DNA from: a virus
Taxonomy: Duplodnaviria; Heunggongvirae; Uroviricota; Caudoviricetes
IMG/VR virus record: IMGVR_UViG_3300041407_000207
Coordinates: 52,090 to 116,089 of that record
Direction: 5' to 3' (one strand)
Length of the DNA: 64,000 nt
Shown here: positions 45,211 to 46,047 of the stretch, one piece after another
How the letters are laid out: each line of letters begins with the position of its first letter
How positions within the stretch are numbered: the stretch's first letter is position 1
The notes under the pieces: generated by a model
What the model saw: only the letters and a program-made list of their open reading frames with translations
What the model was told of the DNA's origin: nothing
The model's database searches: none
Translations under genes and position numbers: made by a program

Positions 45211-46047
45211 TTAGTAATGCATTACTGCTGGCTGACGTTCTTCTGCTAAGAACTTCATGATGATTGGTGAGATCGCCTCCGCCTGAGTGACCATGAACAG
45301 ATGACCATCATCGAGAATGTGTAATTCTGAGTTTGGAATGCGATCTGCGATGATCTTCATGTTTATCAGGGGGATGAGGGGGTCATCGTTACCAGCCAAG
45401 ACCAATGTCGGCTGCTTAATCTTATGCAGCCAATGAATGCTTGTCCACCAGTAAACTGCAGCCATCTGGTAATAGTAGCCGAGACCACCTGACGACTGCA
45501 TCTTTTTCGCATGTGCAGTTGCGAGCTCTTTGTTATCTCGGAAAGCCCCTCCGTAGATATCTGGAGCGATACTGGCTCCGTACTCGGGATCGGTATAACG
45601 TCGAGGACTAGACATCAAACCCAATACCTTCGCTGAAGGAGGCACCATAGCTGAGCCCGTAGAAGTAGCAGCAAGAATCAACTTCTTACAACGTTCTGGA
45701 TAATCTTTTGCGAATTGTTGAGCTAAGAAACCACCCCACGATACGCCGAAGACATTAACCTGGCCGTAGTCAAGATAATCGAGCATGCGAGCTACGGTTT
45801 TAGCCAAGCCCTCGAATCGGTACGGCAGCCATGGAGTAGACGAACCACCTACTCCCGGAACGTCGAAAGCTATAACTTCAAGATCTGGGTCGAGAGAGTT
45901 AATGAAGGGGACTACCAGGTCAATACTTGCACCGATGCCATTGCACAGCAACAGCGGTGTCAGATGTGGCTTTCCTGGACGCACCGCAGTTTTAATGGTT
46001 TGACCATTTAAGGTTATTGTTTTGATAACAAATGCTGAAGTGCTCAT
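45211..46047 (-). CDS. phaZ: alpha/beta-hydrolase resembling the intracellular mcl-PHA depolymerase PhaZ of pseudomonads, 278 aa
   Basis: Nucleophile elbow GVSWGG. Long collinear matches to Pseudomonas PhaZ as I remember it (VRPGKPHLTPLL; DPDLEVIAFDVPGVGGSSTP; MLDYLDYGQVNV; WTSIHWLHKI; DDPLIPLINM; IDDGHLF; IIMKFL). Confidence 0.65.
   Translation of the reverse strand: MSTSAFVIKTITLNGQTIKTAVRPGKPHLTPLLLCNGIGASIDLVVPFINSLDPDLEVIAFDVPGVGGSSTPWLPYRFEGLAKTVARMLDYLDYGQVNVFGVSWGGFLAQQFAKDYPERCKKLILAATSTGSAMVPPSAKVLGLMSSPRRYTDPEYGASIAPDIYGGAFRDNKELATAHAKKMQSSGGLGYYYQMAAVYWWTSIHWLHKIKQPTLVLAGNDDPLIPLINMKIIADRIPNSELHILDDGHLFMVTQAEAISPIIMKFLAEERQPAVMHY

What the first reader, a model, noticed from the sequence alone, without database searches (positions are those of the whole stretch)
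45211..46047. PhaZ-like mcl-polyhydroxyalkanoate depolymerase as an auxiliary metabolic gene (this also suggests the host)
The 278-aa alpha/beta hydrolase carries the GVSWGG nucleophile elbow. It is collinear over nearly its whole length with the intracellular mcl-PHA depolymerase PhaZ of Pseudomonas as I recall that sequence. Many 8-12-residue blocks are identical.

A phage copy would mobilise the host's stored PHA carbon and reducing power during infection. It also points to a PHA-accumulating pseudomonad host, which is consistent with the PL7 alginate-lyase-like gene at 59795-60418.
Basis: partly seen in the sequence, partly recalled or inferred. Interest (0 to 1): 0.6.

Follow-up and report, generated by a model that had tools for sequence, protein, structure and literature searches.

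The report
Phage-encoded PHA storage-polyester depolymerase (PhaZ)
A large bacteriophage carries an intact copy of the enzyme Pseudomonas uses to break down its stored bioplastic (mcl-PHA), and this copy belongs to a version found only on phage genomes so far (at least 11 unrelated phage types), which suggests phages routinely tap their host's carbon reserve during infection.

Summary
Window 45211-46047 (minus strand) encodes a 278-aa alpha/beta-hydrolase. It matches the NCBIfam equivalog for poly(3-hydroxyalkanoate) depolymerase (TIGR02240) over its full length: 477 bits against a cutoff of 250.6. It aligns without gaps to P. putida PhaZ at 69% identity. The catalytic triad (S103/D222/H249), Asn36 and the lid are all present. 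The window is clearly phage.

The gene is not a recent host capture. Its GC3 (0.48) matches the phage, not Pseudomonas phaZ (0.71-0.91). dN/dS within the phage lineage is 0.05-0.09. It belongs to a phage-type PhaZ group of 72 protein clusters, none from a named bacterium. This group sits on at least 11 unrelated phage backbones and never next to phaC. All 82 bacterial loci examined do have phaC adjacent.

Six diagnostic substitutions lie beside the nucleophile and in the lid and hinge. A pseudomonad host is supported indirectly by a PL7 lyase whose named relatives are all from Pseudomonas, and by sister PhaZ phages that share DNA with Pseudomonas phages.

Activity on PHA and any benefit to the phage are inferred, not shown. 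I found no publication describing this.

The parts
45211..46047 (-). phaZ: a 278-aa phage-type intracellular mcl-PHA depolymerase homolog. Ser103 is codon 45741-45739, Asp222 is 45384-45382, and His249 is 45303-45301.
   Evidence: ORF. TIGR02240 at 477 bits against a cutoff of 250.6. Abhydrolase_1. Triad mapped onto PhaZKT S102/D221/H248. AF2 model with pLDDT 89.7 shows a lidded alpha/beta-hydrolase.
46052..46057 (-). Shine-Dalgarno-like AGGGGA, 4 nt upstream of the phaZ ATG. It lies in the 14-nt gap after the stop codon of the upstream gene.
   Evidence: Read directly from the sequence.
46062..46556 (-). 164-aa protein of unknown function (phrog_3806), immediately upstream and co-directional. 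It is conserved next to phaZ in L001-L005 but absent in L006.
   Evidence: No similarity to a phasin. No defence-system match.
44791..45153 (-). 120-aa protein of unknown function, immediately downstream. It is conserved after phaZ in every member of the window's phage clade.
   Evidence: No Pfam, PHROG or PADLOC match.
44673..44746 (-). tRNA-Gly(UCC), located in the same co-directional block.
   Evidence: ARAGORN. Rfam RF00005, 52.6 bits.
46583..46607 (-). Terminator-like hairpin (11-bp stem followed by a T-run) after the HNH gene. It is the likely upstream boundary of the unit containing phaZ.
   Evidence: This is a consensus scan only, and the number of hits was not above the shuffled expectation.
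43958..43979 (-). Terminator-like hairpin (8-bp GC-rich stem followed by a T-run). It is the likely downstream boundary of the unit.
   Evidence: consensus scan only.
59795..60418 (+). PL7 alginate-lyase-like protein, 207 aa. It is not part of the phaZ unit. It serves as independent host evidence.
   Evidence: PF08787, 109 bits. All named homologs are from Pseudomonas spp. (57-59%) or Pseudomonas phage Arace01 (57%).

Best explanation
The ORF is an intact, selectively maintained, phage-encoded member of the intracellular medium-chain-length PHA depolymerase family (PhaZ, TIGR02240). It lies in a co-directional block of auxiliary genes in a large phage. That phage's genome is at least 116 kb and 47% GC, and it is not close to any cultured phage.

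The proposed mechanism has three steps.
1. During infection of a PHA-storing pseudomonad, the phage makes its own PhaZ, independently of the host pha operon.
2. The enzyme binds the host's mcl-PHA granules through its lid and hydrolyses the polyester to (R)-3-hydroxyalkanoic acids.
3. Host acyl-CoA synthetase and beta-oxidation convert these acids to acetyl-CoA, NADH and FADH2. This supplies energy and precursors for phage replication in nutrient-limited, granule-loaded cells.

What is shown: family membership, intact catalytic residues, the predicted fold, residence in a phage genome, purifying selection, restriction of this type to phages, and its recurrence across many phage backbones. What is inferred: the substrate (mcl-PHA), the timing of expression, the host, and the benefit to the phage.
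For: Family and catalytic machinery:
- TIGR02240 equivalog over the full length, 477 bits against a cutoff of 250.6.
- 69% identity to P. putida PhaZ with no gaps.
- S103/D222/H249 correspond to the PhaZKT triad S102/D221/H248 given in PMC12504323. The triad is conserved in 58/58 phage-group sequences, and Asn35 (window N36), whose mutation was reported to abolish activity, in 57/58.
- The AF2 model (pLDDT 89.7, pTM 0.89) shows an alpha/beta-hydrolase core with a helical lid at about residues 139-199. The best PDB neighbours are lidded esterases at TM 0.83.

Phage residence:
- Large terminase, virion and tail proteins, HNH endonuclease, NinI-like phosphatase, NAMPT and a helicase are all in the window.
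- The same gene sits in syntenic phage contigs from independent assemblies.

Long residence and selection:
- Gene GC3 is 0.477, against 0.40-0.60 for other genes of the phage and 0.71-0.91 for Pseudomonas phaZ. dN/dS is 0.05-0.09 with dS above 1.
- The gene's GC tracks the GC of each phage lineage that carries it.

Phage restriction:
- 72 phage-type cluster representatives were found, and none carries an organism name.
- The top 80 hits among 185,579 species-representative genomes are all the chromosomal type.
- 82/82 bacterial loci have phaC adjacent, against 0/38 phage loci.
- The chromosomal clade is monophyletic in 100/100 bootstraps.
- At least 11 unrelated backbones carry the gene.

Pathway logic: PhaZKT releases 3-hydroxy acids that feed beta-oxidation (PMC4834554).

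Host.
Against: - No biochemical or infection data exist for any phage copy.
- The phage type differs from chromosomal PhaZ at six diagnostic positions: N40S, A84V, A106F, G136P, V182M and G197V (KT numbering). The hinge reads YYYQMA rather than YYWQLF. In PhaZKT, deleting this hinge abolished activity, and a single hinge-region change (S184F) switched the enzyme from depolymerase towards esterase (PMC12504323). The substrate therefore cannot be read from sequence alone.
- This particular phage also has Cys in place of Phe34 in the FNGIG loop.
- No FadD, phasin or other PHA-pathway partner was found in the 64-kb window.
- The host is unproven. The phage is 47% GC, while Pseudomonas loci are 55-68%. 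The nearest terminases are from Salmonella and Vibrio phages.
- In Bdellovibrio, degrading prey mcl-PHA was linked to higher ATP and motility but did not increase progeny number (PMC4834554). Any benefit to a phage may therefore be conditional.
Confidence: 0.62

Rival explanations
1. The gene is a retuned esterase. The phage lineage kept the PhaZ scaffold but shifted its substrate through the substitutions next to the nucleophile and in the lid and hinge. Possible new substrates include PHA oligomers, 3-(3-hydroxyalkanoyloxy)alkanoic acids (rhamnolipid precursors), membrane lipids, and acyl-homoserine lactones. The gain to the phage would then be something other than mobilising stored carbon.
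For: Six diagnostic substitutions cluster beside the nucleophile (A106F) and in the lid and hinge (G136P, V182M, G197V, YYWQLF to YYYQMA). PMC12504323 shows that one hinge-region substitution (S184F) raises esterase activity and nearly abolishes depolymerase activity. Structural neighbours include generic esterases, an AHL-degrading esterase (5egn) and lipases. The PHROG match is only to 'esterase/lipase'.
Against: All phage lineages still score above the function-specific equivalog cutoff, at 291-477 bits. There are no insertions or deletions in the lid relative to PhaZKT. Ser184 itself is retained in the window protein. The nearest relatives by a wide margin are true PhaZ enzymes.
Confidence: 0.2
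2. The enzyme is a true PHA depolymerase, but the benefit is physical rather than energetic. Granules can fill much of the cell. Removing them would free space for replication and assembly, make lysis cleaner, or stop virions sticking to hydrophobic granules after lysis.
For: The sequence evidence for depolymerase identity is the same as for the main explanation. The lack of any companion catabolic genes in the window is compatible with a benefit that does not depend on metabolic flux. In one backbone (L123), phaZ sits inside the tail and baseplate module.
Against: There is no direct evidence. PhaZ yields monomers that the host's beta-oxidation would consume in any case, so the energetic and physical effects are not mutually exclusive. 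In most backbones the gene lies among early or auxiliary genes rather than lysis genes.
Confidence: 0.1
3. The gene is lysogenic-conversion or host-benefit cargo. It would be carried mainly by temperate phages and expressed from the prophage to improve the host's use of carbon reserves. The copy in this large phage would be a by-product of gene exchange among phages.
For: One phage-type lineage (L092-L095) is related to the temperate Pseudomonas phages MR13, MR15 and Cruim01. In that lineage phaZ occupies a swappable cargo slot after a reverse-transcriptase gene. A preprint proposes the same logic for a PHB depolymerase in a Gloeobacter prophage (PMC13317609).
Against: No phage-type PhaZ was found in any named bacterial genome, which is where prophage copies would appear. 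The window phage and several other carriers are large or jumbo, lytic-looking genomes with tRNAs and no integrase in view. Within the window's own clade dN/dS is 0.05-0.09.
Confidence: 0.05
4. The gene is an artefact: a bacterial gene joined to phage DNA by mis-assembly, or a decaying passenger gene.
For: The window and all close relatives come from metagenome assemblies.
Against: The identical gene is flanked by the same phage genes in at least four independent assemblies, and by syntenic flanks at 84-89% protein identity in others. Its GC and GC3 match the phage. The ORF is intact, has a ribosome-binding site and is under strong purifying selection. No phaC is nearby.
Confidence: 0.02

Closest known systems
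PhaZ (PhaZKT) of Pseudomonas putida KT2440/KT2442, the model intracellular mcl-PHA depolymerase (TIGR02240)
   Same: 69% identity with no gaps over 277 residues. Both match the same equivalog HMM. The Ser-Asp-His triad, Asn35 and Ser184 are the same. Both have a lidded alpha/beta-hydrolase architecture.
   Different: The gene is encoded on a phage, not between phaC1 and phaC2. There are six diagnostic substitutions, including A106F four residues after the nucleophile, and the hinge reads YYYQMA instead of YYWQLF. This copy has Cys at the position of Phe34. The C-terminus is 7 residues shorter than in the P. putida sequence P0065. GC3 is 0.48 against 0.85. Activity has not been tested.
ORF269 of the Ralstonia jumbo phages RP12 and RP31, annotated 'esterase/lipase' or hypothetical
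   Same: These are the only homologs above about 30% identity among 50,697 deposited phage records. ORF269 also passes the TIGR02240 cutoff at 291 bits. It also lies among non-structural genes of a large phage.
   Different: Identity to the window protein is only 48.7%. ORF269 lies outside both the phage-type group and the Pseudomonadaceae clade and was used as the outgroup. The host is Ralstonia. It has the chromosomal-type residue at four of the six diagnostic positions. It was never discussed as a PHA depolymerase in any paper I could find.
PhaZBd of Bdellovibrio bacteriovorus HD100, a predator-encoded mcl-PHA depolymerase
   Same: The logic is the same. An intracellular parasite of Pseudomonas brings its own depolymerase to consume the victim's PHA store. 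Degradation was linked to higher predator ATP, motility and predation efficiency (PMC4834554).
   Different: PhaZBd is an extracellular-type enzyme from a different family. It lacks the lid and releases more dimers and trimers (PMC4834554, PMC12504323). It belongs to a cellular predator, not a virus.
Previously reported phage genes of PHA metabolism: phaC, phbB, fadD and others in PHA-producing mixed cultures (PMC12013262), and a PHB depolymerase candidate in a Gloeobacter prophage (preprint PMC13317609)
   Same: These are also viral contigs carrying host-derived genes of the PHA cycle, interpreted as auxiliary metabolic genes.
   Different: The first study reports synthesis and activation genes and never mentions a depolymerase or phaZ. 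The second concerns a short-chain PHB depolymerase in one cyanobacterial prophage. Neither describes the mcl-PHA PhaZ family, a phage-restricted lineage, or recurrence across many phage backbones.

Membership tests
Intracellular mcl-PHA depolymerase PhaZ (NCBIfam TIGR02240, equivalog) | Whole-protein HMM score above the curated cutoff of 250.6 bits, with full-length coverage | tested here: met
   477.2 bits, residues 6-277 against profile positions 2-273 of 276. For comparison, P. putida PhaZ scores 620 bits and the other phage lineages score 291-461 bits.
Intracellular mcl-PHA depolymerase PhaZ (NCBIfam TIGR02240, equivalog) | Ser-Asp-His catalytic triad with the Ser in a GxSxG elbow (PhaZKT S102, D221, H248) | tested here: met
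   S103 lies in GVSWG, and D222 and H249 are present. All three are invariant in 58/58 phage-group sequences. Residue numbers are from PMC12504323.
Intracellular mcl-PHA depolymerase PhaZ (NCBIfam TIGR02240, equivalog) | Alpha/beta-hydrolase core carrying a helical lid (PhaZKT residues 133-192) that is essential for depolymerase activity | tested here: met
   The AF2 model has pLDDT 89.7, with helices at 139-199 inserted between core strands. Foldseek top hits are lidded esterases at TM 0.83. There are no insertions or deletions relative to PhaZKT in this segment.
Intracellular mcl-PHA depolymerase PhaZ (NCBIfam TIGR02240, equivalog) | Lid-connecting elements that cannot be deleted in PhaZKT: the FNGIG loop (34-38, including Asn35) and the YYWQLF hinge (190-195) | tested here: inconclusive
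   Asn is retained (N36). The loop reads CNGIG in this phage and FNGIG in 46 of 58 phage copies. The hinge reads YYYQMA in the window protein, and related YYYQ.. variants occur through most of the phage-type group. Both elements are present but altered. The consequence cannot be read from sequence.
Intracellular mcl-PHA depolymerase PhaZ (NCBIfam TIGR02240, equivalog) | Genomic position between phaC1 and phaC2 in the pha cluster | tested here: not met
   82/82 bacterial loci have phaC adjacent, against 0/38 phage loci including the window. This is expected for a gene that a phage has captured, and it is not a property of the protein.
Intracellular mcl-PHA depolymerase PhaZ (NCBIfam TIGR02240, equivalog) | Hydrolysis of mcl-PHA granules, with no activity on PHB | not testable with these tools
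   This requires purified protein and a PHA latex or radiolabelled-granule assay.
Phage auxiliary metabolic gene (AMG) | Encoded within a bona fide phage genome and flanked on both sides by phage genes, reproducibly | tested here: met
   Phage hallmark genes are in the window. The identical or syntenic context appears in independent assemblies L001-L007.
Phage auxiliary metabolic gene (AMG) | Homolog of a host metabolic enzyme that has no role in virion structure or replication | tested here: met
   The nearest named relatives are chromosomal Pseudomonadaceae PhaZ at 66-74% identity. The gene matches no defence-system model.
Phage auxiliary metabolic gene (AMG) | Maintained by selection in the phage lineage | tested here: met
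   dN/dS is 0.05-0.09 with dS of 1.15-1.67 between window-clade copies. GC3 has been ameliorated to that of the phage.
Phage auxiliary metabolic gene (AMG) | Expressed during infection, and changes host metabolism to the phage's benefit | not testable with these tools
   Only a ribosome-binding site and an operon-like arrangement are visible.

The most novel reading that the evidence does not exclude
Mobilising the host's storage polyester is a general and so far unrecognised infection strategy of phages of Pseudomonas and its relatives. One old capture of phaZ gave rise to a phage-restricted enzyme lineage. That lineage has since moved between at least 11 unrelated phage backbones, ranging from 48-kb temperate-like phages to jumbo phages of about 220 to 310 kb. 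Its diagnostic changes beside the nucleophile and in the lid hinge adapt it to attack granules on the phage's schedule, outside the host's own control of the PHA cycle.
Probability: 0.4. Interest if true: 0.75.

Novelty: new variant of a known kind. Interest (0 to 1): 0.6.

Why it matters
PHA can make up a large fraction of the dry mass of nutrient-limited pseudomonads. Starved cells of this kind are generally poor hosts for phages. A phage-borne PhaZ would give a concrete, testable route by which phages unlock an internal carbon and energy store.

This would add storage-polymer mobilisation to the list of known auxiliary metabolic gene functions. It would also link phage infection to PHA turnover in soil, rhizosphere and wastewater communities, and in industrial PHA production.

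In addition, the phage-type enzymes are a natural, strongly selected set of variants in exactly the lid and hinge region where engineered changes to PhaZKT have mostly destroyed activity. That makes them useful starting material for enzymatic recycling of mcl-PHA.

Tried and rejected
- Near-identical DNA in deposited phages: none for window 44000-48000 or for L118. This phage is not a described one.
- A phage-type PhaZ in a named bacterial genome, as a possible prophage or donor: not found among the top 80 hits in species-representative genomes, nor with a profile built only from phage-type sequences. The one new named hit, P0289 from Pseudomonas sp. NPDC007930, is the ordinary chromosomal type. 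P0283, from a contig of about 308 kb, could have been bacterial, but it sits in a jumbo-phage-like context with no phaC.
- The conserved 164-aa upstream neighbour as a phasin-like granule protein: no similarity to a Pseudomonas phasin, E = 23.
- phaZ or its neighbours as part of a known defence system: no PADLOC match.
- Companion PHA or fatty-acid genes (FadD, PhaC, phasins) in the window: none.
- RNA families near the gene: Rfam reported only three of the five tRNAs found by ARAGORN.
- Tracing the source samples in the literature: no paper holds any of the six sample or run ids searched.
- Strict monophyly of the phage-type group: only 45/100 NJ bootstraps. I therefore describe it as a group defined by shared diagnostic residues and exclusion from the chromosomal clade (100/100), not as a proven clade.
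- First flank clustering: single linkage over-merged backbones through one shared phosphatase or RtcB gene. I replaced it with a coverage-based criterion.
- Promoter and terminator scan: hit counts were no higher than in shuffled sequence, so the transcription-unit boundaries are tentative.
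Full report
**1. The observation.** An ATG-initiated ORF of 278 aa occupies 45211-46047 on the minus strand. It contains GVSWGG at residues 101-106. It aligns with P. putida PhaZ (P0065) without a single internal gap over 277 positions, with 191 identical (69.0%). Identical blocks run up to 21 residues, for example LDPDLEVIAFDVPGVGGSSTP.

**2. What the protein is.**
- Against NCBIfam, the best hit is the equivalog TIGR02240, poly(3-hydroxyalkanoate) depolymerase. The score is 477.2 bits against a curated cutoff of 250.6, with E = 1.4e-143, covering residues 6-277 against profile positions 2-273 of 276.
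- The next family, PcaD-type enol-lactonase, scores only 113 bits and is far below its own cutoff.
- Pfam sees Abhydrolase_1.
- No intracellular mcl-PHA depolymerase has a solved structure. The best PDB sequence match is the metagenomic esterase Est1, 6eb3, at E = 6e-27.
- An AlphaFold2 model built on 46 homologs is confident (pLDDT 89.7, pTM 0.89). It shows an alpha/beta-hydrolase core with a helical insertion at about residues 139-199. Foldseek returns lidded esterases and enol-lactonases, with 6eb3 at TM 0.83.
- A 2025 study of PhaZ from P. putida KT2440 gives the triad as Ser102/Asp221/His248, the lid as residues 133-192, a lid-connecting loop FNGIG at 34-38 and a hydrophobic hinge YYWQLF at 190-195. 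It reports that deleting either element, or mutating Asn35, abolishes activity, and that S184F raises esterase activity but nearly abolishes depolymerase activity (PMC12504323).
- The window protein is offset by +1 from that numbering. It has S103, D222, H249, N36 and S185.

**3. The genome is a phage.**
- The window encodes a large terminase (7917-9614, phrog_675, E = 3e-56), virion and tail-fibre proteins, a NinI-like phosphatase, an HNH endonuclease, NAMPT, PhoH and a helicase.
- It also encodes an RNase H, a Ro60-like protein, an SLT transglycosylase and two tail-fibre paralogues, plus five tRNAs.
- It has no near-identical DNA among 50,697 deposited phage records.
- Its terminase is only 52% identical to that of Salmonella phage Arash and 43% identical to those of ~187-kb Vibrio phages.
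- The exact protein occurs on JGI and Logan contigs with the same flanking genes. Its cluster is recorded on a contig of up to 116 kb. Copies at 89% and 84% identity sit in syntenic phage contigs.

**4. Local anatomy.**
- phaZ starts 14 nt after the stop codon of a 164-aa gene of unknown function (phrog_3806). An AGGGGA motif lies 4 nt upstream of its ATG.
- Downstream come a conserved 120-aa gene, tRNA-Gly(UCC) and three small ORFs, all on the minus strand.
- Terminator-like hairpins at 46607-46583 and 43979-43958 bracket this block, but the scan's hit counts were not above chance.
- Neighbours vary between relatives. The HNH gene is absent in L005. The Band_7 gene and the 164-aa gene are absent in L006. 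phaZ and the 120-aa gene stay in place throughout.

**5. Not a recent capture, and under selection.**
- phaZ has GC 0.479 and GC3 0.477. This is within the range of the phage's other genes (GC3 0.40-0.60) and far from Pseudomonas phaZ (GC3 0.71-0.91).
- Between window-clade copies, dN/dS is 0.047-0.092 and synonymous sites are saturated, with dS of 1.15-1.67.
- In every other carrier lineage, the gene's GC also tracks that phage's own GC, at about 51% or 58-60%.

**6. A phage-restricted PhaZ type.**
- Homologs split by simple motifs. The named Pseudomonadaceae enzymes have SWGGA and GYYWQLFAG.GWTS.
- The window protein, and 33 of the 120 cluster representatives listed in the first search, have SWGGF. 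Most of these also have GYYYQ..AVY.WTS.
- A profile built only from phage-type sequences added 39 more clusters, giving 72 representatives. None carries an organism name.
- Every context I could examine is phage-like:
  - a small plus a large terminase (L008, L118);
  - primase, RdgC and a phage metallopeptidase on an 86-kb contig (L091);
  - a reverse-transcriptase/Avd element (L092);
  - a divergent DNA polymerase on an 82-kb contig (L119);
  - T4-like rIIB and spanin on a 60-kb contig (L122);
  - a baseplate and tail module on a 91-kb contig from the same sample as the window (L123);
  - a jumbo-like run of small ORFs (L124, whose protein also occurs on a ~308-kb contig);
  - 25 IMG/VR contigs, including one of 283 kb.
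- By contrast, the 80 best hits among 185,579 species-representative genomes are all the chromosomal type, at GC 55-68%.
- All 82 bacterial loci have phaC adjacent, and none of the 38 phage loci does. The canonical phaC1-phaZ-phaC2-phaD-phasin layout is seen in L009.
- With phaZ masked, the phage flanks fall into 11 unrelated backbones, counting Ralstonia phage RP12.
- In NJ trees rooted on RP12, the chromosomal clade is monophyletic in 100/100 bootstraps and the window clade in 99/100. A second viral group (L111-L116) is monophyletic in 100/100. Strict monophyly of the phage-type group gets only 45/100.
- Six positions separate the two types almost perfectly: N40S, A84V, A106F, G136P, V182M and G197V in KT numbering. 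RP12 has the chromosomal-type residue at four of them, which suggests the phage states are derived.
- These positions lie four residues after the nucleophile, at the entry to the lid, within the lid, and just past the hinge. The hinge itself reads YYYQMA.
- All phage lineages still pass the TIGR02240 cutoff at 291-461 bits.

**7. Host.**
- The only named relatives of the phage PhaZ are Pseudomonadaceae: Pseudomonas, Halopseudomonas, Atopomonas and Zestomonas.
- The gene at 59795-60418 is a PL7 alginate-lyase-family protein. All its named homologs are from Pseudomonas spp. (57-59%) or Pseudomonas phage Arace01 (57%).
- L094 is a phage-type PhaZ contig from the same sample series. It shares 84% nucleotide identity over 3.1 kb with Pseudomonas phage SC_8_H2H8_2017, and 75-80% with Cruim01, MR13 and MR15.
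- L115 shares 76% identity over 624 bp with the P. syringae phages Cruim01 and Aurca01.
- In Cruim01, the slot after the reverse-transcriptase gene holds small hypothetical genes where L092 and L094 have phaZ.
- A pseudomonad host is therefore the best inference, but it is unproven. The 47% GC and the five tRNAs fit a large lytic phage whose composition differs from its host's.

**8. Mechanism.**
- PhaZKT degrades granule PHA to 3-hydroxy acids, which are either oxidised by beta-oxidation or re-polymerised (PMC4834554).
- I infer that the phage enzyme does the same from a phage-controlled gene. This would convert the store into acetyl-CoA and reducing power when the infected cell is nutrient-limited.
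- The closest functional precedent is Bdellovibrio. Its unrelated, lid-less PhaZBd digests prey mcl-PHA and is associated with higher predator ATP, motility and predation efficiency, but not with more progeny.
- The main rival is a shift of substrate, because the phage-specific changes sit in the part of the enzyme where single changes can alter specificity.
- Physical clearance of granules and lysogenic conversion are lesser rivals. Assembly artefact is excluded.

**9. Novelty.**
- The JGI pipeline already labels the protein 'poly(3-hydroxyalkanoate) depolymerase'. RefSeq labels the RP12 homolog 'esterase/lipase'.
- Full-text searches found no paper describing a phage mcl-PHA depolymerase.
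- The nearest reports are PHA-synthesis genes on phage contigs, in a paper that never mentions a depolymerase (PMC12013262), and a PHB depolymerase candidate in one Gloeobacter prophage (preprint PMC13317609).
- The enzyme family and the AMG concept are both known. What is new is this AMG function, the phage-restricted lineage with its lid and hinge signature, and its recurrence across many phage backbones.

**10. Verdict.** Function and benefit are inferred. Interest is 0.6.

Noticed in passing
window 1840-3096 (-) and 3470-4522 (-): A ThiF/E1-like protein (PF00899, E = 1e-14) sits next to a prokaryotic JAB-domain protein (PF14464, E = 6e-9). The E1-like protein has weak PADLOC matches to CBASS-type E1-E2 and to BilD. 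This is a phage-borne pair resembling ubiquitin-like conjugation and deconjugation enzymes, and could be counter-defence.
   Followed up: partly
window 42538-43272 (-); L092 4695-5441; L115 10615-11247; L118 10889-12142; L122 10122-11354: A NinI-like Ser/Thr phosphatase lies about 2 kb downstream of phaZ in three otherwise unrelated phage backbones, at 38-55% aa identity. An RtcB RNA ligase lies about 2 kb downstream of phaZ in two others. These were the only genes shared between those backbones outside phaZ.
   Followed up: partly
window 46615-47196 (-): An HNH homing-type endonuclease (phrog_953, E = 1e-52), followed by a strong hairpin, is present here and in L001 to L003. It is absent from the same position in the related phage contigs L005 and L006, so it looks like a recent mobile insertion beside the phaZ block.
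   Followed up: partly
window 39140-40645 (-), 38625-39095 (-), 40664-41143 (-): A Ro60-like protein (TROVE plus vWA_Ro60) is flanked by an RNase H and a DUF3268 zinc-finger protein. The Rfam gathering scan found no Y-RNA-like partner.
   Followed up: partly
window 54071-55819 (-), 55831-56670 (-), 57470-58228 (+): NAMPT, a PRPP-synthetase-like gene and PhoH lie 8-12 kb from phaZ. The first two look like an NAD+ salvage pair. NAMPT and Ro60 have higher GC3 (0.60 and 0.59) than most of the other genes measured in this phage.
   Followed up: no
window 28243-29202 (+) and 29212-30189 (+): Two tandem tail-fibre paralogues, each with a phage tail collar domain and a gp53-like C-terminal domain.
   Followed up: no
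window 62096-63236 (-) and 44673-44746 (-): There are five phage tRNA genes: Arg-UCU, Ser-GCU, Ser-UGA and Met-CAU in a cluster, and Gly-UCC alone just downstream of phaZ. The mechanical ORF 44619-44780 overlaps tRNA-Gly and is spurious.
   Followed up: partly
L092 3-1590; L094 4834-7937; L121 (Pseudomonas phage Cruim01) 5289-6679: In one PhaZ-carrying lineage the gene sits directly after a reverse-transcriptase/Avd element, which looks like a diversity-generating retroelement. The cultured relative Cruim01 has small hypothetical genes in that slot instead.
   Followed up: partly
L111-L116 (IMG/VR contigs, GC about 58.5%): This second viral PhaZ group has an intermediate signature. It shares S40 and V84 with the phage type but has Ala at position 106 and the hinge-region motif GYYYQLFAAMYWTS. 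It branches outside both main groups in 61/100 bootstraps, and it may record an earlier stage or a separate capture.
   Followed up: partly
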